Assembly (NCBI GenBank): GCA_964500785.1
Contig: CAZCQM010000001.1
Span: forward strand, 1 to 38,234
Source: an uncultured bacterium
Lineage (GTDB): Bacteria; Krumholzibacteriota; Krumholzibacteriia; WVZY01; JAKEHA01
Length of the DNA: 38,234 bases
Reading direction: 5' to 3'
Every line of letters starts with the position of its first letter. Within the stretch, counting starts at the first letter, position 1. Shown here piece after piece: positions 9,588-37,962 of this stretch. The notes under the pieces are model-generated. The model did not search any database. It was not told the origin of the DNA and was given only the letters and a program-made list of their open reading frames with translations. Made by a program: the position numbers and the translations under genes.

Positions 9588-10754
9588 ATGCGGATTCTCT
9601 TCATCAGCTCGATCCAGATGTGGGGCGGGGCCGAGGTATGGCTCATGGACGTCATGCACGGGCTGAAAGCGCGCGGGCACGACGTCGCCCTTGTGTGCCG
9701 GCCCGGGACGATCCTGGAGAAGAACGCGCTCGCCCGCCGCTTCGATGTCGTCCCGATGGCGATGCGCAGCGATTTCGATCCGGTCGTCGTGGGAAAGATG
9801 ATGCGCCTCCTGCTTCAGAGGAAGATCGACGTCATCTCCACCAACATGGACAAGGAGCTTCGTTTCGGCGGACTCGCCGCCCGCCTGGTCCGGCGCGTCG
9901 CCGTCGTTCCGTCCCGGGAGGTCGACTATCCGCTCAAGAACAAGCTGCGGTACCGGTTCACCTACAACGTACTCGCCGACCTCGTGATTGCGAACTCCGT
10001 CGCCACCAAGCGGTCGCTGCTGCGTGAGGCGCCGTGGCTGAAGCCCGATCGCGTCGCCGTCATCTACAAGGGGATCGACCCGGCGCCCTATCTCGATCGT
10101 CCCGAAGAGGGAGAGGCCCTGCGCCGGGAGCTCGGCATCCCGGGCGATGCCCCGCTGGTGGGTTTCGTCGGGCAGATCATCGAGCGCAAGGGGATCCACG
10201 ACATCGCCGCGGCCATGCCCATGGTTCACGCGCGGCAGCCCGACGCGCGGTTCCTCTTCGTCGGCGAGGGCAAGCTGGAGGAATTTCTCGAGAAGCGGGT
10301 GGCCGAGGACGGTATCGCCGATCGCGTCGTGCGCACAGGGTTTCGCGACGATATTCCCGCGGTGATGAAGGCCATCGACGTGCTCATTCTTCCGTCGAAG
10401 GTGGAGGGTTTCGGCTACGTGCTCGCGGAGGCGATGGCCGCGGGCAAGCCCGTGGTGGCGACCAACGTGAGCAGTATTCCGGAGATCGTCCAGCACGATG
10501 AAACCGGGATCCTCGTGGACCCCGCGGATCCGCCGCGTCTGGCGGAGGCCATCGTCCGTCTGCTGCAGGATCGCGAGCTCGCCACGGCCATGGGGGAGCG
10601 GGGGCGCGACGTGATGCTGGGGAAGTTCACGCTGGAACGCATGATTTCGCAGATCGAATCCGTGTTCACCGCGCAGGCCGAAGCGCACGGTGGCCGCTCC
10701 CTGACGCGGAAGGCCGTCCGCGACCAACGAACGCCGAGCGGGAACACCACGTGA
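9588..10754 (+). CDS. Glycosyltransferase family 4 (GT-B, RfaB-like)
   Basis: MRILFISS...GGAEVW...; C-terminal half has ILPSKVEGFGYVLAEAMAAGKPVVATNVSSIPEIV..ETGILV (EX7E-type GT4 motif). Confidence 0.85.
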   Translation: MRILFISSIQMWGGAEVWLMDVMHGLKARGHDVALVCRPGTILEKNALARRFDVVPMAMRSDFDPVVVGKMMRLLLQRKIDVISTNMDKELRFGGLAARLVRRVAVVPSREVDYPLKNKLRYRFTYNVLADLVIANSVATKRSLLREAPWLKPDRVAVIYKGIDPAPYLDRPEEGEALRRELGIPGDAPLVGFVGQIIERKGIHDIAAAMPMVHARQPDARFLFVGEGKLEEFLEKRVAEDGIADRVVRTGFRDDIPAVMKAIDVLILPSKVEGFGYVLAEAMAAGKPVVATNVSSIPEIVQHDETGILVDPADPPRLAEAIVRLLQDRELATAMGERGRDVMLGKFTLERMISQIESVFTAQAEAHGGRSLTRKAVRDQRTPSGNTT

Positions 10755-10791
10755 TCGTCGTTCGCCCGACACCGGCCGGAAGGAGTCCATC

Positions 10792-11328
10792 ATGACCGCT
10801 CGGAATTCGAACATCCGCCGTCGTCCGGAGCCATCGGAGTACTTCGAGTACTATCACCGCTACATCGAACAGGTGCCGGACGGTGACATCGTCGACGTCC
10901 TTCGCGCCCAGTTCGAAGAGGCCGCCGCCTTTCTCGCCCGGGTTCCCAGGGACCGCGTCGAGTTTCGCTACGCTCCCGGCAAGTGGACGCTCAAGGAAGT
11001 CGTGGGGCACGTCCTCGACATGGAATGGGTGTTCACCGCGCGCGCGGTTCATTTCGCCCGCGCCGTCCCCGGCGCGCTGCCGGGTGCCGAGCAGGAGGAC
11101 GTGATGGCGGTGGCGAACTTCGGAGAGCGGCCGCTCGACGAAGTCGTCGACGAATGGGGCCATTTGCGCGCCGCCGGGGTGCGGTTCTTCGAGGGAATCG
11201 ACGCCGCCGCGTGGGATCGAGCCGGTACCGCCTCGGGGCGGCGATTCACCGTGCGCGCCTTCCCCTACATCATCGCCGGGCACGCGCATCACCACATGAA
11301 CGTGATTCGCGAGAAGTACCTCGGTTAG
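10792..11328 (+). CDS. DinB-family (four-helix bundle, metal-binding) protein
   Basis: YFEYYHRYI...KWTLKEVVGHVLDME...AGHAHHHMNVIR gives the His triad spacing typical of DinB_2. AGGAG lies upstream. Confidence 0.8.
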   Translation: MTARNSNIRRRPEPSEYFEYYHRYIEQVPDGDIVDVLRAQFEEAAAFLARVPRDRVEFRYAPGKWTLKEVVGHVLDMEWVFTARAVHFARAVPGALPGAEQEDVMAVANFGERPLDEVVDEWGHLRAAGVRFFEGIDAAAWDRAGTASGRRFTVRAFPYIIAGHAHHHMNVIREKYLG

Positions 11329-12161
11329 CCGGCCGATTCGGGCCCGGCCCGGAGCAGCGACAGGACGAACCGGTTCCAGCCCGCGGGACCCACGTCGTCG
11401 ACGCGGACGACGTTCGGAACGTCGATGTCCTCCCACGTCCCCGGCGCCTTCTGAACCAGAACGGGAACGTCCATCGCGCGCAGCAACGCGGCGTCGTTGA
11501 AGCTGTCGCCGATTCCCACCAACCGCACGTCTCCGTCGCGCCGCCGGTAGAGCTCCGCGAGTATGAGCGCGGCCGCGCCCTTGTTGGAGCGGCCGGTGAC
11601 GCTGTAATAGCGCCCTCCGCGCGCGAGGGAGAGGCCGCGACGGGCCAGCGCGCGGCCCACCGTGCCGGCGTCGTCGGGCGCGAGCGGGGTCACGATCGAC
11701 TCCTGGAACTCTCTCTGCCGCGCGCGTCGCGCCGACTCGACATCCAGCCCCGTGCGCTCGGCGACGTCCTCGTCGGTGAGGTCACCGTAACCCGTCAATT
11801 CGATTCCCGTCTCCTCGCGGATCGCCCGGATCGCTTCCCGGACGACGTCGTAAACGGGCCCAAGGCGGATGACGAGCATCCCGTCGTCCGCTCGATCACA
11901 CACGAACTCGAAGGGGAAGTAGCCGGGGTCGATGTACACGGCGGAGCCGTCTTCGACGATGAACGGATGGCCGACGCCCAGACGTTCGCGGAGTTCCATC
12001 TGCTCCGCGCGTGTCTTCGACGAGCAGAACACCAGGGGGACGTTCTTCGTGCGAATAACGTCGAGGGCGGGTAGCGCCGCATGGCAGTCGTACGTCGCCC
12101 GGTCGAGGAGCGTGCCGTCGAGGTCGGTGAAGATGATGGGAAGGTCGGAACGCGATGACAT
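11325..12161 (-). CDS. mpgP: Mannosyl-3-phosphoglycerate phosphatase (HAD-IIB)
   Basis: IIFTDLDGTLL...VFCSSKTRAEQ...PFIVEDGSAVYIDPGYFPFEF...SNKGAA...GDSFND closely matches archaeal and Thermus MpgP as I remember them. The ATG is at 12161-12159; the listed 573-aa ORF is a run-through into the upstream gene. Confidence 0.9.
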   Translation of the reverse strand: MSSRSDLPIIFTDLDGTLLDRATYDCHAALPALDVIRTKNVPLVFCSSKTRAEQMELRERLGVGHPFIVEDGSAVYIDPGYFPFEFVCDRADDGMLVIRLGPVYDVVREAIRAIREETGIELTGYGDLTDEDVAERTGLDVESARRARQREFQESIVTPLAPDDAGTVGRALARRGLSLARGGRYYSVTGRSNKGAAALILAELYRRRDGDVRLVGIGDSFNDAALLRAMDVPVLVQKAPGTWEDIDVPNVVRVDDVGPAGWNRFVLSLLRAGPESAG

Positions 12162-12166
12162 GGCGC

Positions 12167-13795
12167 TCACCCCAGGAACTCGAGAGCCCGGGCCAGGATG
12201 ATGATCCCGACCGAGTACGCCAGCAGGGACAGAATGAGCCCCCGGTGGTTGTGGATGAATCGCGGGACGTCCCCGCGGACGAACGCCGTCGGCTCTCCCG
12301 ATGCCATCGTCTCCATGCGGTGCCACAGTGCGGCGAATCCCATCGCGGCGAAGAATCCGGTGACGTTCCACCACAGCCACGAGACGTCGGTCAACTGCCA
12401 GATCAGCACGTTCACCGCGATGCCGGCGACGACGCCGGCCCGGGTCTGGCGGGCCGTGGCGAGCGTGGTGATGCCGAGGAGGAACGCGGCCAGGATGGGG
12501 CCGTAGAGCAGGCTCCCGACGGAGTTGATGAGCACGATGGTGGTCTCCCGGACCGCCTGGCCCGACCCGGCGAACACCAGCGCGGCCAGGATGCAGAAGG
12601 TGCCCCAGAACGCGGTGAACAGCTTGGAGACGATGAGGTAGTGCCGGTCGCTGGCGGCGGGCCTGACGTAGGCGCGATAGACGTCCTGCATGGTGACGGC
12701 GCTCAGGGAGTTGATCGCGGAGTCGAGGCTCGACATGAGCGCGGACAGGATGGCGGCGATCACCAGGCCGACGACTCCCACGGGCAGGAACGCGAGCACG
12801 AACATCGGCACCATGCGGTCGGGATTCGCCTGCAACGTCGATGTCACCGACGCCGGGTTCATGCCCAGTGCGCCCGCCACGTCGGCCACGCGGTCCGGCG
12901 CCGCGAAGACGGCGCCGATCATCACGCCCATCAGGCAGTAGAGCAGGACGACGGGAAAGCGGCCGAACGCGTTGACGAGCAGAGAACGTCGCACGTCGCG
13001 CACCGAGCCCACGGAGAGCTCGCGCTGGACCTGGCTCTGATCGCACCCGTAATAGGATGCGTAGAGGAAGATGCCGCCGATAGTCATGGGCCAGAATCCG
13101 TACTCGCCCTTTCCCCCGATCCCGAGACCGCTGAAGTCGAGCACGCGGGCGCGTTCGGGCCCGAGCGCGGCCCAGCCGGCGCTCCAGCCCACCATGTGGA
13201 GCGCCACACCGCCGCAGATCAGAATCCCGATGACGATGATCGCCATCTGCAGGACGTCGCTCATGATGACGACGCGCATGCCGCCCATGACGTCGTAGAT
13301 CATGGTGACGACGCCGATGACCAGAATGGCCTCCGCGGTCGAAAGGGGAGTGGCGGTGGAGAGGATCAACCCGCCTGCCAGCACCGAGACGGCCGTGGCC
13401 AGCCCCCGGCCCAGCTGGAAGAGAATGCTGACGAGAGTCCGCGTTCCCCGGTCGAAGCGCTCTTCGAGGAACGCGTACGCGCTGACGTATCCGCCGTCGT
13501 GGAGCCGGGGCACGATCACGACCATCGCCACGAGCACCCCGATGGGAACGCCGAACTCATAGCAGAGCCACTTGAGACCGCCGTCCGGCTTGATGGCGAC
13601 GAACGCCGGCGCCGACACGAAGCTGATCGCGCCGAGCTGTGTGGCCATGGTCGACAGTCCCGATTGCCACCAGCGTATCTTGCGACCCGCCAGGTAGTAA
13701 TCGTGCACACTGTGCTGCGTGCGCCCGAACCAGTAGGCAAGGACGATGATGACCAGGAAGTAGGCGAGAACTACGATCCAGTCCAGAACCGCCAT
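12167..13795 (-). CDS. Sodium:solute symporter family (SSF/SLC5-like) transporter
   Basis: DYYLAGRKIRWWQSGLSTMATQLGAISFVSAPA plus about 13 TM segments. It sits 12 nt after mpgS and 5 nt before mpgP. Confidence 0.9.
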   Translation of the reverse strand: MAVLDWIVVLAYFLVIIVLAYWFGRTQHSVHDYYLAGRKIRWWQSGLSTMATQLGAISFVSAPAFVAIKPDGGLKWLCYEFGVPIGVLVAMVVIVPRLHDGGYVSAYAFLEERFDRGTRTLVSILFQLGRGLATAVSVLAGGLILSTATPLSTAEAILVIGVVTMIYDVMGGMRVVIMSDVLQMAIIVIGILICGGVALHMVGWSAGWAALGPERARVLDFSGLGIGGKGEYGFWPMTIGGIFLYASYYGCDQSQVQRELSVGSVRDVRRSLLVNAFGRFPVVLLYCLMGVMIGAVFAAPDRVADVAGALGMNPASVTSTLQANPDRMVPMFVLAFLPVGVVGLVIAAILSALMSSLDSAINSLSAVTMQDVYRAYVRPAASDRHYLIVSKLFTAFWGTFCILAALVFAGSGQAVRETTIVLINSVGSLLYGPILAAFLLGITTLATARQTRAGVVAGIAVNVLIWQLTDVSWLWWNVTGFFAAMGFAALWHRMETMASGEPTAFVRGDVPRFIHNHRGLILSLLAYSVGIIILARALEFLG

Positions 13796-13807: not shown

Positions 13808-15034
13808 CTACCCGATGCGGATGGTCTTGTCGGAACTATTGCCGTAGGTGTTTGCCAGGTGCCGGCCGTAGTCGGTCTCGGCGATGCACTCCAGGAACTT
13901 CTCGAGGTCGATCGACGACAGCGCCGGGAAGTACCGTGGCTTCGGGAACGGCGACTTGCTGCTCGGGATCAACCCGCGCCGCGCCGCGTCGGCGGCGATT
14001 TCGCGCCGGATCGATTCCGGGCACAGGCGGGAGTGATACACCACCTGCATGGCCTGGAGTTGCATGCGGTCGATGTGGCTCTCGTCGCCCGCCTCGTGGA
14101 GGTGCGGATTGCGCGACTCGATCTGGAAGACCTCGACACGGGGCTGGGTCGACCCGGAGTTCTCCAGGATGCCGCCGTAGCGCTCCAGTATGTTGATGAT
14201 GTGGTACGGCTCGATCGAGTACCCGGCGGAATAGTCGAGGTTCATGGCGAGGTCCATCGTGAGCGCGTGCTCGCCCGCGTTCCCCGTCTTGACGATCTCG
14301 GTCTCGAAACCGGTGTAGTGGTCGATGATACGGTTGAGCAGTCGGTTGGTATTGACCGTGCTCCGCCCCCACTTGCGGAAGAACAGCTTGGACTCGACGA
14401 TCTTCGGCTTGCTGTGCCACGCGATGCGCACCATCGAATGCGAAGACCGGCTGATCGCGAAACCGGCCGCGTATTCGCGGACGTATTCCTCGACGGCGCC
14501 GGGGAAGTAGTTATCCGAGTCGACGAAACCGACGTACTTCTTTCCCGCCAGACGCGCCAGCAGCGTGCCGATCAGCATGCCTTCGGCCTTGCCGTCACGG
14601 ACCACGCCGTTCGGGCTCAGGATCTTGCGGTAGCCGGTTTCCGCGAACGCCTTGCTCAGCGCGGGATCCTGCTGGTGTGCGATCAGGACCTTCTTTCCCA
14701 CGAAGGTGCAGAAGTCGCTGACGGCGTCTTTCTCGATGCCGAAACGGTCCACCGACTTGCGGGGGCTGTTGGATACCACGATGGTCAGGCACGCGTGCGG
14801 GACGCCGCACAGGACGCCCTCGATGAGCTTGAGGCGCTCGCCCTTCACCGGGATGACGATCGCCATGTCCTTCTGAATCTTGTACAGCTCGCGGTAGGAG
14901 ACGGCGCGGATCACGCGTGACAGTTCGGCCGGCGACTCTTCGCCCAGGCCCGAGTCCAGCTCGAACACTTTTTGAAGATCGCCGAATCGCACCGCGCCGA
15001 TACGCTCGACGTTCTTGGGCAATTCGATTCGCAT
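13808..15034 (-). CDS. mpgS: Mannosyl-3-phosphoglycerate synthase (GT55)
   Basis: IVIPVKGERLKLIEGVL...IVVSNS...HQQDPALSKAF...DGKAEGM...GFVDSDNYFPGAVEEYVREYAAGF...TGNAGEHALT...GYSIEPY...FQIESRNPHLHE is collinear with Pyrococcus and Rhodothermus MPGS as I remember them. The ATG is at 15034-15032. Confidence 0.93.
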   Translation of the reverse strand: MRIELPKNVERIGAVRFGDLQKVFELDSGLGEESPAELSRVIRAVSYRELYKIQKDMAIVIPVKGERLKLIEGVLCGVPHACLTIVVSNSPRKSVDRFGIEKDAVSDFCTFVGKKVLIAHQQDPALSKAFAETGYRKILSPNGVVRDGKAEGMLIGTLLARLAGKKYVGFVDSDNYFPGAVEEYVREYAAGFAISRSSHSMVRIAWHSKPKIVESKLFFRKWGRSTVNTNRLLNRIIDHYTGFETEIVKTGNAGEHALTMDLAMNLDYSAGYSIEPYHIINILERYGGILENSGSTQPRVEVFQIESRNPHLHEAGDESHIDRMQLQAMQVVYHSRLCPESIRREIAADAARRGLIPSSKSPFPKPRYFPALSSIDLEKFLECIAETDYGRHLANTYGNSSDKTIRIG

Positions 15035-15036
15035 GT

Positions 15037-16752
15037 CTATCGACCTCCTCGGACGATCTCTCCGATCTGCTCGGAGGTCGCCTCCCAGTTCTTTCTGGCG
15101 TCTCCCTGGAGCAACCCGACGTCGGCGGCGAGGCTGTCCAGGTAGCACTGCACGTGCGCCAGGGGCTCCCACAGGGCTTCGTCTCCATACTTGAACCCGT
15201 ATCGCGACGAGCTGCCGAGCTTCTCGACGACCGAACGGGCGGGATCGTAGTCGGTGTTTCCGACGGTCTCCGGCGAGAAACCGTTGCGGCGCGCGATCTC
15301 GTCGAATGCGTCGTGGACGTTGGCGCCGTGCTGGGCGGCCTCCTTGGCGCGGAACGCGACGTCCTCGGGGACGCCGAGAGCGATGCTCGCCGCGCGATGA
15401 ACGCGCTTGCGCACCTCGTCGGCGCCCTTGTGAATCTTGAGTTGCGGCGAAATCGAGAACGCGGTTTCGATCACCATCGGGTCCAGGAACGGAACGCGCA
15501 GCTCCAGGCTGTGCGCCATGGCGATCTTGTCCTCGCGCTCCAGGCACTCCTTGTAGAGGAGGAACGTGTCCTCCCACGAGCGCTCCACGAATTCTTCGTA
15601 TCCTTCGCGATCGACGATCGCGGCGTACCACGGATACCCACCGAAGAGCTCGTCGGCGCCCTGGCCGTTCATGATGACCAGCTCGCCGGCCTCCTGGGCG
15701 GCGCGGATGGACGCGAAGACCGGCACCGCGACTTCCACCTGGTTGAGACTGTGGTCCTCGATGGTCGCCATCACTTCGGGGAGCATCGCTTCGATGTCGT
15801 CGGTGGTAAGCTCCACCAGCTCGAGCGGGAAATCGTGTTCCTCGGCCGTCCGCAACGCCCACTCGGCGTCGGGCGCGCTCCGGCTTCGTCCCGCGGTGTA
15901 GCACGTGAACGGCGCGCCGGTGCGGCGCACGAGCTCCGCGATCAGGAAACTGTCGACGCCCCCCGAGTAGATGACTCCGATGCGCGGCTGTCCGACCACG
16001 CGCTTGCGCACGGACTCCTCCAGGACGCGCGCGTACTGATTGACCGCCATGCGCGGATCGGTGATACGCGCCGTCTGTCGGGGCGCCTTCGGTTCCCAGA
16101 AGCGGCGTGTCTCCGAGTGACCCGGCTCCATGATGAGCATGTGCCCGGGGAGGAGGCGTTTGATCTCGGCGCCCTCGCCGGCCACGGCCCACAGGGCCTT
16201 CTTCTCGGACGCGAATGCCACGATGCCGTCGCCCGCCGCGGCGTAGTAGAGCTGTCGCACGCCGATGCGGTCGCGCGCGATGACCGTCATGCGCCCATCG
16301 GTGACGGCGGCCGCGTAGACGCCGTCGAGGTGGGGAAGCACGTGCTCCATCGCGAGCACCAGGTCCCCGCGGTAAACATCCTCGAGCAACCGGCAGAAGA
16401 CCTCGCTGTCGCTTCCCGTGGCCAGTGGCTCACCGCCCTTGAGGCCCCGCCACAACTCACGGTAGTTGTAGATCTCACCGTTATGCAGCAGGTGGAGCCG
16501 GCCGTCCGCAGACGCGAACGGCTGCACGCCCTCCGCACTGCCGGTGATGGCGAGGCGGACGTGGCCGAGCCCCGCCGTACCCATCTTGTTGCGGAAGTCG
16601 ATTTCGTCGAGCGACGACCGGCGCTGGCACTCGGTGCCGACGACGATACCCGCCCCGTCGGGTCCGCGATGATGCTGCGCGCGCAGCATCGATTCGAGCA
16701 GCGGTCCGAGATCCCGTTCCTCCCGGGTCACGATTCCGGCGATGCCACACAT
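15037..16752 (-). CDS. Asparagine-synthase-like glutamine amidotransferase (class II Ntn GATase plus PP-loop ATP pyrophosphatase)
   Basis: N-terminal MCGIAG (Cys nucleophile), HRGPDG, PP-loop YSGGVDS, ELRVPFLD. Its stop is 2 nt before the mpgS ATG, and its ATG is 2 nt after the marR stop. Confidence 0.88.
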   Translation of the reverse strand: MCGIAGIVTREERDLGPLLESMLRAQHHRGPDGAGIVVGTECQRRSSLDEIDFRNKMGTAGLGHVRLAITGSAEGVQPFASADGRLHLLHNGEIYNYRELWRGLKGGEPLATGSDSEVFCRLLEDVYRGDLVLAMEHVLPHLDGVYAAAVTDGRMTVIARDRIGVRQLYYAAAGDGIVAFASEKKALWAVAGEGAEIKRLLPGHMLIMEPGHSETRRFWEPKAPRQTARITDPRMAVNQYARVLEESVRKRVVGQPRIGVIYSGGVDSFLIAELVRRTGAPFTCYTAGRSRSAPDAEWALRTAEEHDFPLELVELTTDDIEAMLPEVMATIEDHSLNQVEVAVPVFASIRAAQEAGELVIMNGQGADELFGGYPWYAAIVDREGYEEFVERSWEDTFLLYKECLEREDKIAMAHSLELRVPFLDPMVIETAFSISPQLKIHKGADEVRKRVHRAASIALGVPEDVAFRAKEAAQHGANVHDAFDEIARRNGFSPETVGNTDYDPARSVVEKLGSSSRYGFKYGDEALWEPLAHVQCYLDSLAADVGLLQGDARKNWEATSEQIGEIVRGGR

Positions 16753-16754
16753 GG

Positions 16755-17357
16755 CTAGGCCTCCCCCGGTGCGCCCGGATCGCGGGGCGCGGCGCCGGAA
16801 TCCGCGCCTTCAGGCGGGGATGCGTTGGCTTCCGGCGGTTCCATCAGGTCGACGATGCGCTGGAGCGACAACGCGATGGTTGCCTGCTCGATATCGGGAA
16901 GCGCCTTGAGCGCGTTCGACAGTCCTTCGTGCAGCGGCGATGGTCCCTGGCCGACCAGGGCGATGCCGGTGGGCGTCGCGCTGACATTGACGACGCGGCG
17001 GTCGCGCGTATCGCGCAGGCGCATGATCAGCCCCTTGCTCTCGAGGCGGTCGAGCACGCCCACGACGGTGCTCGGGCTCAGGCTCACCATCTCGGCGAGC
17101 CGTTTGATGGGCAGCGGGGCCTCGCTCACGATCGTCGCGAGGCATACCAGCTGCGGGCCGGTGATCTCGTGGGTCAAGCGCAGGCGCTGCGAGTGGATGT
17201 CCATGCCGCGGATGATCCGCCGCAACGAGCGCAGGATGTGCAGGTCGTAGCGGGCGGGTGGAATCGTCGGCCGGATCTCGGTCGGGCCCGGACTGGCGCC
17301 GTGGGTGCGTCCCGCACCCCGCCGGCCCCCCGAACCCTCGTCGATATGGGAGTTCAT
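16755..17357 (-). CDS. MarR-family transcriptional regulator with low-complexity N- and C-terminal tails
   Basis: The winged-HTH core GPQLVCLATIVSEAPLPIKRLAEMVSLSPSTVVGVLDRLESKGLIMRLRDTRDRRVVNVSATPTG is a classic MarR pattern. It is the first gene of the minus-strand operon. Confidence 0.85.
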   Translation of the reverse strand: MNSHIDEGSGGRRGAGRTHGASPGPTEIRPTIPPARYDLHILRSLRRIIRGMDIHSQRLRLTHEITGPQLVCLATIVSEAPLPIKRLAEMVSLSPSTVVGVLDRLESKGLIMRLRDTRDRRVVNVSATPTGIALVGQGPSPLHEGLSNALKALPDIEQATIALSLQRIVDLMEPPEANASPPEGADSGAAPRDPGAPGEA

Positions 17358-17388
17358 GCGTGTCTCGCTCGAAAAATTAGTTTGCAGG

Positions 17389-17401
17389 AGAAATGATTTC
17401 T
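17389..17401. promoter_or_regulatory. Perfect 6-1-6 palindrome AGAAAT-G-ATTTCT in the marR / GH38 divergent intergenic region (candidate MarR operator)
   Basis: Read directly from the sequence. It lies 32 nt upstream of the marR ATG in the only AT-rich stretch of the region. Confidence 0.4.
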
Positions 17402-17498
17402 GTTGAAATTGATGGTCTCAACCTAACCCCATGGGCGGGGAATGTCAAGTCAGGAGCACCCCGGCACTTGATGATCTAACGGATTGATGGTATTCAAC
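17402..17498. promoter_or_regulatory. Three copies of a TTGATG(G/A)T..(T)CAAC-like motif, one embedded in GTTGA-N11-TCAAC
   Basis: ATTGATGGTCTCAAC at 17408-17422, CTTGATGATCTAAC at 17467-17480, ATTGATGGTATTCAAC at 17483-17498. The inverted repeat is GTTGA at 17402-17406 with TCAAC at 17418-17422. Confidence 0.35.
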
Positions 17499-17557
17499 TT
17501 GTCCGTACCCATGACGGTTCGAAGCCGATTCCGCGTCGTCACCCAAGGAGACGTTCC

Positions 17558-17615
17558 ATGACCGTGAAGGCCCCGCCCCGGACCATTTTTCTGGTCCCGC
17601 ATACCCACTATGACG
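17558..17615 (+). other. Out-of-frame N-terminal fragment of the GH38 mannosidase carrying the metal-binding H-x-H-x-D motif
   Basis: The frame starting at 17558 reads MTVKAPPRTIFLVPHTHYDEG..., the GH38 N-terminal signature, with AAGGAG upstream of its ATG. The rest of the enzyme is in the +1 frame from 17610. Confidence 0.6.
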
Positions 17616-20072
17616 AAGGAGGACTACCTCAACATCCACAAGATGCTCCTCCGGCAGGCGCTCGACATGATCCACGGCAACGGGTTCAAGTTCCTGATCG
17701 AGCAGACCTACCTGCTCGAGCAGATCGAGTCCGACGACCCCGTCCTGTTCGGAGAGATTCGCGAGGCCATCCTGGCGGGGCACATCGAGATCGCAGACGG
17801 CGAGTACCTGATGCCCGATCCCATGATCCCCGCCGAGGAAGTCCTCGTGCGCGAGATCCTCTTCGGCAAGCTCTACTGCAAGGAGACCTTCGGGGTCGAC
17901 GTGCCGGTCGCGTGGATGTCGGACGGTTTCGGTCTCAACGCGCAGCTCCCGCAGATCTACAAGAAGTCCGGCTACAAGTGGCTCGCCTTCCGCCGCGGCC
18001 TCCCGCGCTCGGTGGGATCCCGCACCAGCGAGTTCATGTGGGAAGGTCTCGACGGGACCCGGATCCTCGCGCACTGGATGCCCCTGGGGTATCGCGCCGG
18101 GCTCGACCTCACGAAGTGGAAGGAGTCGCTCGCGACGCTCGAGAATCTCGCGGCGACGCCCAACATCCTCATGCCGTGCGGGAGCGGGGGAATGCTCATC
18201 CAGGAGGAGATTCCCGACGCGGTGCGCGCGTGGAACCAGGGCAACGGCACTCCGAAGATGCAGATCTCCACGCCCAGCCAGTTCTTCGAGGCCGTCGATG
18301 CGGCCGGAGAGCCCCCGACGGTTTTTCGCGGCGAGCTTTACAGCGCCGATCTCGAGGACATCTTCCCGGACGTCGTATCGAGCCGCATATCGCTCAAGCT
18401 CGCCATCCGCGAGTGCGAGGATCTCATCAAGTCGGTGGAGAAGGCGGCGGCGCTCCGCTATCTGGGCGGGCGCGGCTATCCGTCCGACCGCCTCGAGGCG
18501 GCGTGGAAGAAGATGCTCTTTCTGTCGTTCCACGATGTCGTTCCCAGCTGCGGAATCGACGAGGTGTACGAAGAGGCGTGGGAGTACATCGCCGACATCA
18601 AGGCGTTCGCGAAGGCGTTCTACTCCACGATGGCCGACACCCTTCCCCGCAACCAGGCGCGCGGCGTGGCGATCATGGTGTTCAATCCGCACAGCTGGGA
18701 GATCAAGGACTGGGTGGAGGTCGACCTCAAGCTGGGGACGGGCTGGAGCAAGGAGCCCGGCGTCTACGTCGACGGCAAGGAAGTGGTGAGCGAGGCCCGG
18801 GACATCAAGCGCTGGGACGACGGCTCGATCCAGCGAACCAAGCTGGGATTCGTCGCCTCCGGGCCGCCGATGGGATACCGCGTCTACGAGGTGAAACCCA
18901 AGAGCCGCGAGTTCCGGAGCAAGAAGATCACCGTCAGCGGTACGTCCCTGTCCACGAAGTTCTTCGACGTGCGCGTGGACGAGCGCGGCATCCTGGAGGT
19001 TTTCGACCGCAACGGCAAGGAGATCGTGCGCGGCAACGAGGTCGTGATCGACGCCGAGGTCGGCGACCTCTACTTCCACAGGAGTTTCCTCGATCAGTGC
19101 CTCGGGTCGGAGAGCGGCGACGGGATCCGCTTCGGCGCCTTCAAGCCGGAAGGGTTGACCATCGAAAAAGGCGCGGTCCGCTCGATCATCACCTTCAAGA
19201 ACGCGTTCTACTGCCTGCGCTGGCCGTACTACCTGCTCGAGAAGTACAAACCGCTCCTGTACCGGCAGAAGACGCTGGAAGTCACCAAGCGCGTCATCGT
19301 CTACAACGACATCCCGCGCATCGACTTCTTCACCGAGATCGATCTGCAGCAGCCGCACGTCCGCGTCCGCCTGCGTTTCGACACGTGCATGGCCGCTCCG
19401 GCGTACACGCGCGAGACGCAGTTCGGCGCCATCGAGCTCCCCTACCAGCGCACCCTGGAGGAGGGCGTCAAGATGCCGTCGCTGACGTGGATCGTCGCCG
19501 AAGCGGGTGAACGCGGCCTTGCGTTCCTCACCAAGGGTGTGCCCATCAACGAGGTCAAGGGCGGCGAGATCTTCTGCACGCTGCTGCGCAGCGTTTCCGT
19601 GCTCTCGGCGGACGGCGTCAGCGGCCCGCTCATCCCGACCCCCGGCGCGATGGAGCTGGGCCGGCACACCTACCAGTACTCGATTTACCCGTACACCGGC
19701 GACTGGCGCGACGCCCAGGTGCCGCGGGAAGCGTACAGCTTCGGCGAGGGCCTGATCGGGTTCCAGGTCGACCGGCTGCCCGACGAGCGGGAGTCCGAGA
19801 CGTTCCATCTCGAGCCCGACAACCTGGTGACCTCGGCGCTGAAGAAGGCCGAGCGCGAGGAAGCCCTGATCCTGCGCTTTTTCGAGACCAGCGGCCGGGC
19901 CTGCCGGGCCCGTCTGTCGGTGCCTGCCACAATCGGCCGGGTGTCTCATGCGACGCTCCTGGAGGAGGATACGGGGGAAGGAGAGATCCCGATCCGAAAC
20001 GGGAAGGTCGAAATGGACGTCAAGCCCTTCGAGATCATCACCCTGAAGCTCAAAACAATGCTTGTGCCCTGA
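17610..20072 (+). CDS. Glycoside hydrolase family 38 alpha-mannosidase (MngB-like); the main ORF as written lacks the N-terminal HxHxD motif
   Basis: GHIEIADGEYLMPD...LFGKLY...PVAWMSDGFGLNAQLPQIYKKSGYKWLAFRRG (nucleophile Asp region), collinear with bacterial GH38 enzymes such as E. coli MngB. 820 aa. Confidence 0.85.
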   Translation: MTKEDYLNIHKMLLRQALDMIHGNGFKFLIEQTYLLEQIESDDPVLFGEIREAILAGHIEIADGEYLMPDPMIPAEEVLVREILFGKLYCKETFGVDVPVAWMSDGFGLNAQLPQIYKKSGYKWLAFRRGLPRSVGSRTSEFMWEGLDGTRILAHWMPLGYRAGLDLTKWKESLATLENLAATPNILMPCGSGGMLIQEEIPDAVRAWNQGNGTPKMQISTPSQFFEAVDAAGEPPTVFRGELYSADLEDIFPDVVSSRISLKLAIRECEDLIKSVEKAAALRYLGGRGYPSDRLEAAWKKMLFLSFHDVVPSCGIDEVYEEAWEYIADIKAFAKAFYSTMADTLPRNQARGVAIMVFNPHSWEIKDWVEVDLKLGTGWSKEPGVYVDGKEVVSEARDIKRWDDGSIQRTKLGFVASGPPMGYRVYEVKPKSREFRSKKITVSGTSLSTKFFDVRVDERGILEVFDRNGKEIVRGNEVVIDAEVGDLYFHRSFLDQCLGSESGDGIRFGAFKPEGLTIEKGAVRSIITFKNAFYCLRWPYYLLEKYKPLLYRQKTLEVTKRVIVYNDIPRIDFFTEIDLQQPHVRVRLRFDTCMAAPAYTRETQFGAIELPYQRTLEEGVKMPSLTWIVAEAGERGLAFLTKGVPINEVKGGEIFCTLLRSVSVLSADGVSGPLIPTPGAMELGRHTYQYSIYPYTGDWRDAQVPREAYSFGEGLIGFQVDRLPDERESETFHLEPDNLVTSALKKAEREEALILRFFETSGRACRARLSVPATIGRVSHATLLEEDTGEGEIPIRNGKVEMDVKPFEIITLKLKTMLVP

Positions 20073-21252: not shown

Positions 21253-22671
21253 ATGTGGATCACTACGGTAGCATTCGTCGTTCTGACCGCGTTGTTCGTG
21301 GCGCGTCACATGCGCCGGCGTGCGGGCGACACCAAAGGCACCCTGTGCCCGCGCTGTCGCGCCAACGTCCCACCCGGCGCGGCGCGGTGCCCGCGATGCC
21401 ACGTGCCGATGCAGCTCTACGAGGTCGTGAGCGCGAAGGCGGTCACCGATGACGCGGCGTCCGGGGGCGGTGGCGACGCGCACGCCGTGGTCCGCGCCGA
21501 CCTGTGCGTCGGGTGCGGCGCGTGCGTGCCCGTTTGTCCCGAACCCAACGCCATCAAACTGGTGGGCAAGCTCGCCACGGTGAATTCGACGCTGTGCAAG
21601 GGGCACGGCAACTGCGTCGAGGCGTGCCCGGTCGGGGGCATCGTGCTGACGACGGGCGAGGCGGTCCACCGGGTCGAGGTCCCCGAGATCGATACTGATT
21701 TCGAGAGCAACGTGCGCGGTGTCTACGTGGTGGGTGAGCTGGGCGGCCGCGGGCTGATCAAGAACGCCATCAACGAGGCCACCGTGGCCATCGAGCACAT
21801 CGCCGACGACCTCGCGCTGCGGCGCAAGACCGACGCCGAATCGGCCGGTATCCTGGATGTCATCATCGTGGGGAGCGGCCCGGCCGGGCTCGCCGCGGGG
21901 CTCGCGGCGAAGGCGCGCGATCTGCGCTACCTGGTCCTCGAGCGGGGCGCCCTGGCGGACACGATCCGCAAGTACCCGCGGGCAAAGTTCTTGCTTGCCG
22001 AGCCGGTACGCGTCCCCTTGTACGGAAACCTCTGGGTGTCCGACGCCTCCAAGGAGACCCTCCTCAAGGTATGGGAAGAGATCATCCAGCGCACGGGACT
22101 GGACGTGCGCACCAACCACCGCGTCACCGGCGTGGCGCCGGAGGGCGGGCATCTCGTTGTCCGGACCCCGGAGGAGGAGTTCCGCGCGCGGCGCGTGGTC
22201 CTGGCCATGGGGCGTCGCGGAAACCCGCGCCGGCTGGGGGTCACCGGCGAGGATGCGGGCAAGGTCATCTACGACGTCGTCGACATGGAGTCGTTCGCGG
22301 GGCAGCAGATGCTCGTCGTGGGCGGCGGCGACAGCGCGGTGGAGTCGGCGGTCGGCCTGGCTCGACAGCCGGGTACGAAGGTCACCCTGAGTTACCGGGG
22401 CGAGGAGTTCAAGCGAGTCAAGGAACGCAACCGGACCAAGCTCGAGGAAGCGGTGCGCGGCGGAACGCTGCGCGCTCTCCTGCAGAGTCAGGTCAAAGAG
22501 ATTCGTGAAAAAGAAGTCGTCATTGAAGTCGAGGGGCGGGAGGAAGTGTTTGCGAACGATACGGTGGTCGTCCGCATCGGTGGCGATCCGCCGTTTGCGT
22601 TCCTCGAGCAGATCGGAATCCGGATCGTCAAGAAGGACATCCCGCTTCCGCAGGAGGAGGTCTTTGCGTAA
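21253..22671 (+). CDS. Membrane-anchored NAD(P)/FAD-dependent oxidoreductase with zinc-ribbon and 2x[4Fe-4S] ferredoxin domain
   Basis: N-terminal TM helix followed by RRR; CPRC...CPRC; CVGCGACVPVCP and CKGHGNCVEACP; Rossmann motifs VIIVGSGPAGLAAG and LVVGGGDSAVE. Confidence 0.75.
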   Translation: MWITTVAFVVLTALFVARHMRRRAGDTKGTLCPRCRANVPPGAARCPRCHVPMQLYEVVSAKAVTDDAASGGGGDAHAVVRADLCVGCGACVPVCPEPNAIKLVGKLATVNSTLCKGHGNCVEACPVGGIVLTTGEAVHRVEVPEIDTDFESNVRGVYVVGELGGRGLIKNAINEATVAIEHIADDLALRRKTDAESAGILDVIIVGSGPAGLAAGLAAKARDLRYLVLERGALADTIRKYPRAKFLLAEPVRVPLYGNLWVSDASKETLLKVWEEIIQRTGLDVRTNHRVTGVAPEGGHLVVRTPEEEFRARRVVLAMGRRGNPRRLGVTGEDAGKVIYDVVDMESFAGQQMLVVGGGDSAVESAVGLARQPGTKVTLSYRGEEFKRVKERNRTKLEEAVRGGTLRALLQSQVKEIREKEVVIEVEGREEVFANDTVVVRIGGDPPFAFLEQIGIRIVKKDIPLPQEEVFA

Positions 22672-22693
22672 CACGGGGCTGGCCGCGCGGCGA

Positions 22694-24496: not shown

Positions 24497-24522
24497 ACCG
24501 CCTGACGGCGAGGTGATTGGTT

Positions 24523-30142: not shown

Positions 30143-30847
30143 ATGGCTCTCGATGCCACCGCATTCATCGGCAAGCTGGACGAGACGATCTCTTTGCACG
30201 CGATGCTGCAGCACCCGTTCTACCGGGCCTGGAACGAGGGCGGGCTCTCCAGGGAGACCCTGCGCGAGTACGCCAAGCAGTACTACGCCCACGTCCGCTT
30301 CTTTCCGCGCTACGTGAGCGCCGTGCACGCCTCGTGCGACGACATCCGCGTCCGCCAGCTGCTCCTCGAGAACCTGATCGACGAGGACCGCGGGGACGAC
30401 AACCACCCCGAGTTGTGGATGCGCTTCGCCGACGGCCTCGGCGTGGATCGCGGCGCGGTGCGCGACGCGGATCTCCTGCCGGCGACGCGCGAGTCGGTGG
30501 CCGAGATGGTGCGCCTGACGCGCAGCGACGACTTCCGCGACGGGCTGGCCGCTCTCTACGCCTATGAATCGCAGATCCCGCTGGTCGCGAAGACGAAGCG
30601 GGAGGGCCTGGCGTCGTTCTACGGCCTGAACGACGCGCGTTCGGTGGACTTCTTCACCGTCCACGAAGAGGCCGACATCGTCCACAGCCAGGTGGAGCGC
30701 GATCTGCTCGCCGAGCACTGCCGCACCGACGCCGCCCAGGCGCGCGCGCTGCAGTCGGCCGGCGACGGCGCGCGGGCGCTGTGGCTCTTTCTCGACGGCG
30801 TGCACGAGGCGTACTGCAAGGACGCGGTTCCGTCGCGCGAACGCTGA
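30143..30847 (+). CDS. CADD/CT610-like heme-oxygenase-fold di-iron protein (PqqC/TenA superfamily); candidate alternative p-aminobenzoate synthase
   Basis: Collinear with my recollection of Chlamydia CT610: HPFYRAWNEGGLSRETLREYAKQYYAHVRFFPRYVSAVHASCDD...LLENLIDEDRG.DNHPELW...AALYAYESQIP...FFTVHEEADIVH. Confidence 0.78.
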   Translation: MALDATAFIGKLDETISLHAMLQHPFYRAWNEGGLSRETLREYAKQYYAHVRFFPRYVSAVHASCDDIRVRQLLLENLIDEDRGDDNHPELWMRFADGLGVDRGAVRDADLLPATRESVAEMVRLTRSDDFRDGLAALYAYESQIPLVAKTKREGLASFYGLNDARSVDFFTVHEEADIVHSQVERDLLAEHCRTDAAQARALQSAGDGARALWLFLDGVHEAYCKDAVPSRER

Positions 30848-30871
30848 CACTCCATCGACAGGACGAGACAC

Positions 30872-31567: not shown

Positions 31568-31682
31568 CCGTCGAACGGGTCATGCGGGCTCGCGAGGATT
31601 GCTCGAACGCGAGTCCGCAGCGCGATTCCAGATGTCGTCCGCGCGAGGACCCGAGCGGGAGGGCAACCTCGCGAGCCCTCTG

Positions 31683-32489: not shown

Positions 32490-32564
32490 GCCGTTCCCGG
32501 TCTCCAGACCCGCGCGATCGCGACCCGATCCGCTGTGGCATCGCCTCCCGTGCCAGTGTACCAT

Positions 32565-32588
32565 AAGGCCGTTCGCGCGAACGGCCTT
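32565..32588. promoter_or_regulatory. 24-bp perfect palindrome AAGGCCGTTCGCGCGAACGGCCTT between divergent thiD and the S2P gene
   Basis: Read directly; it equals its own reverse complement. It ends 6 nt before a TATATT hexamer (32595-32600) that lies 16 nt upstream of the ATG at 32617. Confidence 0.4.
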
Positions 32589-32616
32589 CGCGCCGTATAT
32601 TACGTAGCGAGTCCCC

Positions 32617-36984: not shown

Positions 36985-36985
<1 letters not shown>
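36341..36985 (-). CDS. ThiE-fold paralogue, TenI-like (possible thiazole tautomerase) or second thiamine-phosphate synthase
   Basis: FYLVTD...VQLREK...GASTH...GADFVCFGPVFETASKKRFG...VPVFAIGGV. It lacks the NDR and GVH.G.DD motifs of ThiE, and its VFET..KK resembles my recollection of B. subtilis TenI. Its ATG overlaps the thiG stop by 1 nt. Confidence 0.55.

Positions 36986-37962
<977 letters not shown>

What the first reader, a model, noticed from the sequence alone, without database searches (positions are those of the whole stretch)
15037..16752. AsnB-like amidotransferase coupled to mpgS: candidate mannosylglyceramide synthase
Seen: the ORF has an intact Cys nucleophile (MCGIAG) and PP-loop (SGGVDS). 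Chemically this means ATP-dependent adenylation of a carboxylate followed by glutamine-derived amidation. Its stop is 2 nt from the mpgS ATG.

Established: Rhodothermus marinus accumulates the neutral amide of mannosylglycerate (mannosylglyceramide) under salt stress. As far as I know, the amidating enzyme has not been genetically assigned.

Inference: this enzyme may amidate the glycerate carboxylate of mannosylglycerate (or its 3-phospho precursor) rather than aspartate. A housekeeping asparagine synthetase would not be expected inside a MarR-regulated solute operon.
Basis: inference. Interest (0 to 1): 0.78.

Follow-up and report, generated by a model that had tools for sequence, protein, structure and literature searches.

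The report
Candidate mannosylglyceramide synthase beside mpgS
An asparagine-synthetase-like gene is joined to the gene for the stress-protectant sugar mannosylglycerate across about ten bacterial lineages and in soil archaea, which makes it the best candidate yet for the unidentified enzyme that turns this solute into its neutral amide; no experiment has shown this.

Summary
A 571-aa AsnB-family protein (16752..15037, minus strand) starts MCGIAG and has the PP-loop SGGVDS. It lies 2 nt after a MarR gene and 2 nt before mpgS, in the operon marR–asnB-like–mpgS–Na+/solute symporter–mpgP.

The link to mpgS is not local. It held in 19 of 20 bacterial genome loci and in 24 of 24 evaluable loci carrying this MpgS clade. 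It was absent from all 15 evaluable classical mpgS–mpgP loci. The linked proteins form one clade that also includes Dehalococcoidales and Nitrososphaerales, in three different gene orders.

Two sister lineages sit beside glucosyl-3-phosphoglycerate-synthase-type genes. What the two glycosides share is the glycerate carboxylate.

The glutaminase and adenylation residues are intact. Residues needed for aspartate chemistry in true AsnB are replaced (Glu348→Gln, Arg325→Glu, Asp384→Cys/Thr). The known osmolyte amidase AsnO also has Gln348.

Best reading (about 0.55): a glutamine-dependent amidotransferase that makes mannosylglyceramide. This is not proven. No assay exists, Rhodothermus marinus could not be checked, and some archaeal relatives are not linked to mpgS. 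No paper in the searchable library assigns this gene.

The parts
16755..17357 (-). MarR-family regulator, first gene of the operon; its stop codon is 2 nt before the AsnB-like ATG
   Evidence: PF01047 at 59 bits. A homologue sits at the same position in L001-L011, L045 and L052.
15037..16752 (-). AsnB-like amidotransferase (571 aa), the candidate mannosylglycerate or mannosyl-3-phosphoglycerate amidotransferase
   Evidence: The AlphaFold model has pLDDT 88, and its best PDB match is 1CT9 (TM 0.87 normalised to the target).
16108..16752 (-). N-terminal class-II (Ntn) glutaminase domain, residues 1-215; Cys2 is the nucleophile after Met removal
   Evidence: GATase_6 and GATase_7 hits. The equivalents of E. 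coli Cys1, Arg49, Asn74, Gly75, Glu76 and Asp98 are kept in 27 of 27 clade members.
15319..16035 (-). ATP-pyrophosphatase (adenylating) domain, residues 240-478. It carries NGQGADE in place of SGEGSDE, NQVE in place of TTIR, and KEAAQHG after the essential Lys.
   Evidence: PF00733 hit; alignment to E. coli AsnB; clade invariants.
15949..15966 (-). PP-loop SGGVDS (residues 263-268)
   Evidence: Read directly from the sequence. S, G, G, D and S are invariant in the clade.
15040..15318 (-). Family-specific C-terminal module (residues 479-571) with the conserved motif EKLGSSSRYG...W...VQxYLD; absent from E. coli AsnB
   Evidence: Invariant columns Y502, E510, G513, S514, R517, Y518, G519, W528, Q535 and D539; comparison with relatives.
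13808..15034 (-). Mannosyl-3-phosphoglycerate synthase (MpgS, 408 aa)
   Evidence: PF09488 at 486 bits; TIGR02460 at 472 bits against a cutoff of 351.
12167..13795 (-). Sodium:solute symporter (SSS family) inside the operon; substrate unknown
   Evidence: TIGR00813 at 221 bits against a cutoff of 184. It lies between mpgS and mpgP in many related loci.
11325..12161 (-). Mannosyl-3-phosphoglycerate phosphatase (HAD-IIB), last gene of the operon
   Evidence: TIGR01486 at 227 bits against a cutoff of 165; start codon read.
17358..17557 (.). Divergent intergenic region. It holds an AT-rich stretch with an imperfect palindrome at 17382-17408 (candidate MarR operator) and a promoter-like site on the minus strand.
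   Evidence: These are pattern matches only.
17558..20072 (+). GH38 alpha-mannosidase, transcribed divergently (candidate hydrolase for the mannoside solute). It is frameshifted near 17612 in this window.
   Evidence: PF01074 and the other GH38 domains; N-terminus compared with L002. A homologue lies near the operon in 19 of the related loci.

Best explanation
The gene encodes a glutamine-dependent amidotransferase of the AsnB superfamily whose substrate is the glycerate carboxylate of mannosylglycerate or of its precursor mannosyl-3-phosphoglycerate.

Proposed mechanism, by analogy with AsnB:
- The C-terminal PP-loop domain adenylates the carboxylate with ATP.
- The N-terminal Cys-nucleophile domain hydrolyses glutamine.
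- The ammonia travels to the acyl-adenylate and gives the primary amide.

Together with MpgS and MPGP, the operon would make the uncharged solute mannosylglyceramide. MarR would control it, the in-operon symporter would recapture or import solute, and the divergent GH38 mannosidase would degrade it.

Shown: the domain architecture, the intact catalytic residues, the departure from the aspartate site, and the conserved linkage to mpgS. Inferred: the substrate, the product, and all regulatory and transport roles.
For: **Operon.** marR, asnB-like, mpgS, SSS and mpgP are packed with gaps of 2, 2, 12 and 5 nt.

**Linkage.** mpgS lies next to the orthologue in 19 of 20 bacterial genome loci at 50-83% identity. 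Their record titles name Latescibacteria/Krumholzibacteriia, Bacteroidota, Fidelibacterota, Anaerolineales, Ignavibacteria, Deltaproteobacteria, Eubacteriales, Thermodesulfobacteriota and Dehalococcoidales. In a combined set of 100 mpgS loci, the AsnB-like gene is present in 24 of 24 evaluable loci with MpgS at 60% identity or more to the window. It is present in 0 of 15 evaluable classical mpgS-mpgP loci. On the MpgS tree, the loci carrying it fall into coherent clades.

**Three gene orders keep the adjacency.** Bacteria have asnBL-mpgS. Dehalococcoidales have mpgS-asnBL-mpgP or mpgS-asnBL-SSS. Nitrososphaerales have EF2-mpgS-spacer-asnBL.

**Co-evolution.** Identities of the two proteins co-vary (Spearman 0.71, n=44). 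The linked AsnB-like proteins are monophyletic and lie apart from canonical AsnB.

**Sister lineages.** One lies 2.9 kb from a bona fide gpgS (374 bits against a cutoff of 262). Another overlaps the stop codon of a GpgS/MGS-like glycosyltransferase that follows a histidine phosphatase, inside a sucrose-synthesis cluster. What mannosylglycerate and glucosylglycerate have in common is the glycerate carboxylate.

**Active site.** The glutaminase residues, the PP-loop, Lys429 and Lys449 are kept. Glu348 becomes Gln in 27 of 27 members, TTIR becomes NQVE (so the Arg becomes Glu), and Asp384 becomes Cys or Thr. In human ASNS, Glu364 and Asp400 help form the pocket for the substrate's alpha-amino group, and the E364Q variant is inactive (PMC6748925).

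**Precedent.** AsnO of S. meliloti amidates the osmolyte NAGGN. It also has Gln at position 348, and it scores 432 bits on TIGR01536. Passing that model therefore does not identify an asparagine synthetase.

**Chemistry of the pathway.** The glycerate carboxylate is the only carboxylate in the MG pathway (GDP-mannose, 3-PG, MPG, MG); this rests on established chemistry.

**The product exists in nature.** Mannosylglyceramide replaces mannosylglycerate in R. marinus at high salt (PMC1224877).
Against: - There is no biochemical or metabolite evidence for any member of the clade.
- The Gln348 / Glu324 / Thr-or-Cys384 / KEAAQH signature and the C-terminal module also occur in relatives with no glycosylglycerate gene nearby: L028 and L029 in Nitrososphaerales, L125 beside an AsnC-type regulator, and L126. 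The signature therefore does not by itself identify the substrate.
- Some Nitrososphaerales have mpgS without the gene within 6 kb (L118-L120).
- R. marinus, the only organism shown to make the amide, could not be examined. Its MpgS was not among the 120 closest homologues, all at 60% identity or more. It therefore probably lies outside the linked MpgS clade.
- TIGR01536 formally passes its cutoff, so automated pipelines name the protein asparagine synthase.
Confidence: 0.55

Rival explanations
1. It is a genuine, though divergent (archaeal-type), asparagine synthetase that is simply co-transcribed with the solute genes, for example to adjust amino-acid pools during osmotic stress.
For: TIGR01536 scores 306 bits against a cutoff of 267. 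All general catalytic residues are intact, and Asp351, Glu352, Tyr357 and Arg387 are kept. Some relatives sit in housekeeping contexts, one of them beside an AsnC-type regulator.
Against: - Linkage to mpgS persists across about ten bacterial lineages and archaea in three different gene orders. That is not expected of a housekeeping gene.
- Glu348 is replaced by Gln, and the equivalent human variant E364Q is inactive.
- The Arg of TTIR is replaced by Glu.
- The AsnB equivalog NF006949 is failed, at 246 bits against a cutoff of 499.
- AsnO, which is not an asparagine synthetase, passes TIGR01536 with a higher score.
Confidence: 0.12
2. It amidates some other carboxylate that matters under osmotic stress, such as an amino-acid-derived solute or an envelope component. 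Its link to mpgS would then reflect co-regulation and not a shared pathway.
For: AsnB-family enzymes amidate many substrates. AsnO acts on NAGGN. From my own knowledge, and not tested here, AsnB1 and LtsA amidate peptidoglycan meso-diaminopimelate. Relatives of the clade also pair with other partners, such as CN_hydrolase in L127 and L132.
Against: - The operon contains no other biosynthetic gene that could supply a different substrate.
- The adjacency is specifically to mpgS, while the other neighbours (SSS, GH38, MarR, and the position of mpgP) vary.
- Sister lineages are linked to a second, non-homologous type of glycosyl-3-phosphoglycerate synthase.
Confidence: 0.15
3. It amidates the acceptor before glycosylation (3-phosphoglycerate or glycerate), and MpgS then mannosylates the amide.
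For: The AsnB-like gene precedes mpgS in the bacterial operon. The end product would be the same.
Against: MpgS proteins from linked and unlinked loci share 76 invariant columns. No column separates the two groups at 90% or more, so there is no sign that the acceptor site has changed. Gene order is reversed in Dehalococcoidales and in archaea.
Confidence: 0.08
4. It uses the adenylate for a reaction other than amide formation, such as cyclisation or transfer to another nucleophile, as beta-lactam synthetase and lasso-peptide cyclases do.
For: The model also matches beta-lactam synthetase and CarA, but less well (TM about 0.72-0.75).
Against: Those enzymes have lost the glutaminase nucleophile (my own knowledge, not tested here). 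In this clade Cys1, Arg49, Asn74, Gly75, Glu76 and Asp98 are all invariant, which points to ammonia delivery from glutamine.
Confidence: 0.04

Closest known systems
Asparagine synthetase B (E. coli AsnB, PDB 1CT9; human ASNS, PDB 6GQ3)
   Same: Both have the two-domain architecture of an Ntn glutaminase with a Cys1 nucleophile joined to a PP-loop adenylating domain. The fold matches (TM 0.87 to 1CT9, normalised to the target). Arg49, Asn74, Gly75, Glu76, Asp98, SGGxDS, Asp351, Glu352, Tyr357, Arg387, Lys429 and Lys449 are conserved.
   Different: - Identity is only 22-24%.
- Glu348 is Gln, TTIR is NQVE, Asp384 is Cys or Thr, and the alignment places Asp at Lys376.
- KEAAQHG replaces KEQFSDG.
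- There is a conserved extra C-terminal module.
- The gene is embedded in a solute operon.
- The AsnB equivalog NF006949 is failed.
AsnO, the N-acetylglutaminylglutamine amide (NAGGN) amidotransferase of Sinorhizobium and Pseudomonas (TIGR03104)
   Same: AsnO is an AsnB-family enzyme that neutralises an osmolyte by amidating its terminal carboxylate, and it is encoded with the solute's synthase. It has Gln at the Glu348 position. It passes TIGR01536 without being an asparagine synthetase.
   Different: Identity is about 25%. The window protein scores 161 bits on TIGR03104 against a cutoff of 570. There is no Ngg partner, and the predicted substrate is a glycoside, not a dipeptide.
Two-step mannosylglycerate pathway (MpgS and MPGP) of Pyrococcus, Thermus, Rhodothermus and others
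   Same: The window carries both genes, and they score well above their family cutoffs.
   Different: Classical loci are mpgS-mpgP pairs without the amidotransferase (0 of 15 evaluable). Here an amidotransferase, a MarR regulator, a symporter and a GH38 gene are added.
Mannosylglyceramide of Rhodothermus marinus (an orphan reaction)
   Same: It is the product predicted here. In R. marinus it replaces the anionic acid form at high salt (PMC1224877).
   Different: No gene has been assigned in any paper I could search. R. marinus could not be examined, and its MpgS is probably outside the linked clade.
Peptidoglycan meso-diaminopimelate amidotransferases AsnB1 and LtsA (recalled from memory, not tested here)
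   Same: They are AsnB paralogues that amidate a carboxylate other than that of aspartate.
   Different: The substrate and the genomic context differ. No sequence comparison was made here.

Membership tests
AsnB superfamily (class-II glutamine amidotransferase + PP-loop synthetase; PF00733) | N-terminal Cys nucleophile and glutaminase residues (E. coli Cys1, Arg49, Asn74, Gly75, Glu76, Asp98) | tested here: met
   All are conserved in the window protein and in 27 of 27 clade members. GATase_6 and GATase_7 are hit.
AsnB superfamily (class-II glutamine amidotransferase + PP-loop synthetase; PF00733) | PP-loop SGGxDS, the essential lysines (Lys429, Lys449) and the AsnB fold | tested here: met
   SGGVDS at residues 263-268; Lys449 and Lys470 of the window protein align to E. 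coli Lys429 and Lys449. PF00733 E=4e-45. The model matches 1CT9 with TM 0.87.
Bona fide asparagine synthetase B (EC 6.3.5.4) | Curated equivalog scores | tested here: inconclusive
   TIGR01536 scores 306 bits against a cutoff of 267 and passes. NF006949 (AsnB) scores 246 bits against 499 and fails. AsnO passes TIGR01536 with 432 bits, so that model does not discriminate.
Bona fide asparagine synthetase B (EC 6.3.5.4) | Catalytic Glu348 (human Glu364) in the SGEGSDE motif | tested here: not met
   It is Gln in 27 of 27 clade members, in the motif NGQGADE or TGQGADE. Human E364Q is inactive (PMC6748925).
Bona fide asparagine synthetase B (EC 6.3.5.4) | Thr-Thr-x-Arg motif (Thr322, Thr323 and Arg325 in the literature numbering), implicated in beta-aspartyl-AMP formation; the role of the motif is recalled from memory | tested here: not met
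   TTIR of E. coli aligns to NQVE, and the Arg position is Glu in the clade.
Bona fide asparagine synthetase B (EC 6.3.5.4) | Asp384 (human Asp400) of the pocket that binds the alpha-amino group | tested here: not met
   It is Cys or Thr in 27 of 27 members. This carries limited weight, because the canonical-type representatives have Asn at this position.
Bona fide asparagine synthetase B (EC 6.3.5.4) | Converts aspartate to asparagine | not testable with these tools
   This needs an enzyme assay or genetic complementation.
NAGGN amidotransferase AsnO (TIGR03104) | Equivalog score, and a neighbouring Ngg synthetase gene | tested here: not met
   The window protein scores 161 bits against a cutoff of 570. 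No Ngg-like gene is present in the operon.
Mannosylglycerate two-step pathway | MpgS (GT55; PF09488, TIGR02460) | tested here: met
   486 bits on PF09488; 472 bits on TIGR02460 against a cutoff of 351. It shares 76 invariant columns with classical MpgS.
Mannosylglycerate two-step pathway | MPGP (HAD-IIB; TIGR01486, TIGR02461) | tested here: met
   TIGR01486 scores 227 bits against a cutoff of 165. The narrower TIGR02461 scores 223 bits, just under its cutoff of 244.
Proposed glycosylglycerate amidotransferase clade (not a curated family) | Conserved adjacency to a glycosyl-3-phosphoglycerate synthase gene | tested here: met
   mpgS is adjacent in 19 of 20 bacterial genome loci and in 24 of 24 evaluable loci of this MpgS clade. 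Sister lineages lie beside gpgS-type genes. Exceptions in archaea: L028, L029 and L118-L120.
Proposed glycosylglycerate amidotransferase clade (not a curated family) | Forms mannosylglyceramide from MG or MPG with ATP and glutamine | not testable with these tools
   This needs an enzyme assay with NMR or MS detection.

The most novel reading that the evidence does not exclude
The whole clade would be a previously unrecognised family of glycosylglycerate amidotransferases. Mannosylglyceramide, known so far only from Rhodothermus marinus, would then be a common neutral osmolyte of uncultured mesophilic bacteria (Latescibacterota, Ignavibacteria, Thermodesulfobacteriota, Dehalococcoidales and others) and of soil ammonia-oxidising Nitrososphaerales. 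Sister lineages next to gpgS-type genes would make an undescribed solute, glucosylglyceramide.
Probability: 0.4. Interest if true: 0.8.

Novelty: new variant of a known kind. Interest (0 to 1): 0.72.

Why it matters
- **An orphan reaction.** The step that makes mannosylglyceramide has had no gene since the solute was described in R. marinus in 1999. This finding offers a concrete candidate that can be tested directly.
- **Which solute an organism makes.** If the candidate is right, the presence or absence of one gene next to mpgS would predict whether an organism makes the anionic solute or the uncharged one. That choice affects how much counter-ion the cell needs.
- **Distribution.** The amide would no longer be a peculiarity of one thermophile. 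It would occur across many uncultured phyla and in abundant soil nitrifiers.
- **Annotation.** The genes are currently named asparagine synthase by annotation pipelines.
- **Application.** It would provide a route to a neutral protein-stabilising solute for biotechnology.

Tried and rejected
**Rhodothermus marinus.** I could not retrieve its mpgS or asnB context.
- The single genome scan went to the AsnB-like query and did not return R. marinus.
- The 120 best MpgS homologues carry no Rhodothermus name.
- The Borges 2004 JBC paper is not held.
- The R. marinus metabolic-model paper has no supplements held. It says only that DSM 4252 has two asparagine synthase genes, RMAR_RS11910 (absent from strain ISCaR-493) and RMAR_RS10310.

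**Cultured carriers.** A search with the Nitrososphaeraceae orthologue returned only metagenomic proteins at 77% identity or more, with no named isolate. Cluster look-ups gave no cultured names either.

**Plasmids.** The collection holds no mpgS and no clade member.

**Active-site signature as proof of substrate: rejected.**
- Gln348 is shared by a very large superclade of uncharacterised AsnB-like proteins and by relatives not linked to mpgS.
- The canonical-type AsnB representatives listed have Asn at position 384.
- The Lys376→Asp call lies in a gapped part of the alignment.

**Change in MpgS acceptor specificity.** I looked for this in linked loci and found none.

**Structure.** It was redone with A3.

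**Score gap.** I expected a sharp score gap marking the edge of the clade in the representative search. The scores instead fall gradually. The clade is therefore defined by the tree and by gene context, not by a score threshold.
Full report
**1. What is in the window**

The ORF 16752..15037 on the minus strand encodes 571 aa. It begins MCGIAG and has SGGVDS at residues 263-268. It matches Asn_synthase (PF00733, E=4e-45) and the class-II glutamine amidotransferase domains. It scores 306 bits on TIGR01536 against a cutoff of 267, but only 246 bits on the AsnB equivalog NF006949 against a cutoff of 499.

It is the second gene of a tightly packed minus-strand operon:
- MarR, 17357..16755
- 2 nt gap, then the AsnB-like gene
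- 2 nt gap, then MpgS, 15034..13808 (PF09488 at 486 bits; TIGR02460 at 472 bits against 351)
- 12 nt gap, then a sodium:solute symporter, 13795..12167
- 5 nt gap, then mannosyl-3-phosphoglycerate phosphatase, 12161..11325 (TIGR01486 at 227 bits against 165)

Shine-Dalgarno-like GGAGG sequences precede the AsnB-like and mpgS start codons (read). A GH38 alpha-mannosidase gene is transcribed divergently from marR.

**2. The link to mpgS is general**

*Close homologues.* The closest homologues carry names of Krumholzibacteria and Latescibacterota MAGs. Three homologues at 83, 77 and 65% identity all show GH38 divergent from marR–asnB-like–mpgS–(SSS)–mpgP.

*Species-representative genomes.* A scan returned 40 loci. 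A tblastn of the flanks gave these results:
- mpgS lies next to the orthologue in 19 of 20 bacterial loci at 50-83% identity. The record titles name Latescibacteria/Krumholzibacteriia, Bacteroidota, Fidelibacterota, Anaerolineales, Ignavibacteria, Deltaproteobacteria, Eubacteriales, Thermodesulfobacteriota and Dehalococcoidales.
- The one exception, L020, ends at a contig edge just after an mpgP fragment.
- Three Nitrososphaeraceae loci at 43% identity also have mpgS adjacent.
- Ten generic AsnB-family hits at 29% identity or less have none.

*The reverse test.* An MpgS profile search of metagenome contigs gave 80 loci. In the combined set of 100 loci:
- MpgS at 60% identity or more to the window: the AsnB-like gene is present in 24 of 24 evaluable loci.
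- Classical mpgS-mpgP clade (51.5-57% identity): present in 0 of 15 evaluable loci, and in none of the 19 shorter ones.
- The 47.5-51.5% band: 16 loci with the gene and 10 without. Those with it are of the Nitrososphaerales type.

On an MpgS neighbour-joining tree, the loci carrying the gene fall into coherent clades. Identities of the two proteins co-vary (Spearman 0.71, n=44).

*Gene order.* The adjacency survives three different arrangements:
- asnBL-mpgS in the large bacterial clade
- mpgS-asnBL-mpgP or mpgS-asnBL-SSS in Dehalococcoidales
- EF2-mpgS-spacer-asnBL in Nitrososphaerales

Other neighbours vary (SSS, GH38, MarR, and the position of mpgP). This is the pattern expected of two genes that work in one pathway.

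**3. Where the protein sits in the AsnB superfamily**

A search of 1.84 billion representatives found 1432 with E of 1e-30 or better. Scores decline gradually from the clade outwards.

A signature table and a tree show the following:
- All mpgS-linked proteins (bacteria, Dehalococcoidales, Nitrososphaerales) form one clade.
- That clade lies within a larger group that has Gln at E. coli position 348 and K-x-A-A-Q-H/Y after the essential Lys449.
- Canonical AsnB-type sequences, with Glu348 and L-x-R, appear only at about 190 bits and below, and they branch apart.

Sister lineages give independent support:
- P0249 (42% identity) lies 2.9 kb from a bona fide glucosyl-3-phosphoglycerate synthase (NF010496 at 374 bits against a cutoff of 262).
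- P0391/P0244 (41%) overlaps the stop codon of a 260-aa GpgS/MGS-like glycosyltransferase. That gene follows a histidine phosphatase, inside a cluster with sucrose-phosphate synthase and sucrose synthase.

Mannosylglycerate and glucosylglycerate are made by unrelated synthases. What the two have in common is the glycerate carboxylate.

Not every relative fits:
- Two subgroups pair with a CN_hydrolase.
- One archaeal member sits beside an AsnC-type regulator.
- One member has no informative neighbour.
- Basal Nitrososphaerales members L028 and L029 have no mpgS nearby.
- L026 shares the AsnBL–BFN-domain gene adjacency of L095 and carries an IS240-family transposase about 1.3 kb upstream.

**4. 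The active site**

I aligned the clade to E. coli AsnB, fetched from MG1655. The results are:
- *Kept, glutaminase:* Cys1, Arg49, Asn74, Gly75, Glu76 and Asp98, in 27 of 27 members.
- *Kept, synthetase:* the PP-loop, Asp351, Glu352, Tyr357, Arg387, Lys429 and Lys449.
- *Changed:* Glu348 is Gln in all 27. TTIR is NQVE, so the Arg is Glu. Asp384 is Cys or Thr. Lys376 aligns to Asp, though that region of the alignment is gapped.

In human ASNS, Glu364 (E. coli Glu348), Asp367 and Asp400 (E. coli Asp384) form the pocket for the substrate's alpha-amino group, and the E364Q variant is inactive with aspartate (PMC6748925).

The NAGGN amidotransferase AsnO of S. meliloti is a proven osmolyte-amidating AsnB homologue (TIGR03104 at 1037 bits). 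It also has Gln at position 348, and it scores 432 bits on TIGR01536. Passing TIGR01536 therefore does not identify an asparagine synthetase.

The AlphaFold model is confident (pLDDT 88, pTM 0.89) and is closest to 1CT9 (TM 0.87). A conserved C-terminal module, EKLGSSSRYG...W...VQxYLD, has no counterpart in E. coli AsnB.

One caveat applies. The same signature and the same module occur in relatives that are not linked to mpgS. They argue against aspartate as the substrate. They do not specifically argue for mannosylglycerate.

**5. Mechanism proposed**

The intact glutaminase and adenylation machinery predict formation of a primary amide on a carboxylate. Within the MG pathway (GDP-mannose, 3-PG, MPG, MG), the glycerate C1 is the only carboxylate; this rests on established chemistry. 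The product would be mannosylglyceramide.

MpgS proteins from linked and unlinked loci share 76 invariant columns, and no column separates the two groups. Amidation therefore probably follows glycosylation, on MPG or on MG. Which of the two cannot be decided here.

The roles of MarR, the symporter and GH38 are inferred from position only. The marR–GH38 spacer holds a candidate operator palindrome and a promoter-like site.

**6. Literature**

R. marinus accumulates mannosylglyceramide at high salt (PMC1224877). Searches for mannosylglyceramide, for glyceramide, and for mannosylglycerate combined with asparagine synthase or with amidotransferase found no paper that assigns a gene. The library lacks most subscription journals, so this is absence in what I could search, not proof that no such paper exists.

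**7. Verdict**

This is a real and well-supported candidate for an orphan enzyme. I put about 0.55 on it being a mannosylglycerate or MPG amidotransferase. The main rivals are:
- another stress-related carboxylate as substrate (0.15)
- a divergent true asparagine synthetase (0.12)
- amidation of the acceptor before glycosylation (0.08)

It is a new functional variant within a known enzyme superfamily, not a new kind of system.

The main gaps are the absence of any biochemical data, the untested R. marinus genome, and the unlinked archaeal relatives.

Noticed in passing
window 17558-17700 (+): The GH38 alpha-mannosidase gene appears frameshifted. 'MTVKAPPRTIFLVPHTHYD' is in the frame of ATG 17558, and the rest ('MTKEDYLNIHK...') is in the frame of ATG 17610. 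The homologue in L002 reads '...LVPHTHYDVVWAMTKEDYL...'. About 17 nt are therefore missing, which points to a pseudogene or an assembly error.
   Followed up: partly
window 17370-17421: An AT-rich stretch lies between marR and GH38. It holds the imperfect palindrome TTGCAGGAGAAAT-G-ATTTCTGTTGAAA (17382-17408) and a sigma-70-like site on the minus strand. This is a candidate MarR operator and promoter.
   Followed up: partly
L130 114-3279 and L131 86-3251: A relative of the AsnB-like protein (41% identity) overlaps the stop codon of a 260-aa GpgS/MGS-like glycosyltransferase. That gene follows a histidine-phosphatase gene. A WecB-type epimerase, a fructokinase fusion, sucrose-phosphate synthase and sucrose synthase lie downstream. 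This could be a cluster for an undescribed amidated glycosylglycerate.
   Followed up: partly
L129 5107-12772: Another relative (42% identity) lies beside a HAD hydrolase and 2.9 kb from an operon of an M20-like hydrolase, a bona fide gpgS and a Na+/H+ exchanger.
   Followed up: partly
L127 6001-12665; L132 6105-8728: A separate subgroup of AsnB-like proteins (43% identity, with K-x-P-A-Q in place of K-E-A-A-Q-H) is paired with a CN_hydrolase (nitrilase-superfamily amidase). In L127 a sugar-type ABC transporter follows. The function is unknown.
   Followed up: no
window 12167-13795 (-): A sodium:solute symporter gene sits between mpgS and mpgP. It recurs at that position in many related loci. 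Its substrate is unknown; it may take up or recapture the solute.
   Followed up: no
window 9588-11328 (+): A GT4 glycosyltransferase and a DinB-family gene converge on the end of the operon. The same pair follows mpgP in the close relatives L001 and L002 but not in L003, which suggests lineage synteny and not membership of the module.
   Followed up: no
window 21253-26487 (+): An Fe-S/flavin oxidoreductase (21253-22671) is followed by two large multihaem cytochrome c genes (22505-24496 and 24517-26487; c7/c3 and MtrC-like domains). L002 has the oxidoreductase followed by one multihaem cytochrome gene; in L001 the oxidoreductase lies at the locus edge.
   Followed up: no
L095 7186-8428: In Nitrososphaerales-type loci, mpgS and the AsnB-like gene are separated by a long AT-rich stretch with no ORF of 100 aa or more (about 1.2 kb here). 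They are neighbours there but probably separate transcription units.
   Followed up: no
window 30143-32642 and 36985-37839: Thiamine-related genes are scattered at the right end of the window: a TenA/haem-oxygenase-like gene, ThiD (phosphomethylpyrimidine kinase) and ThiG.
   Followed up: no
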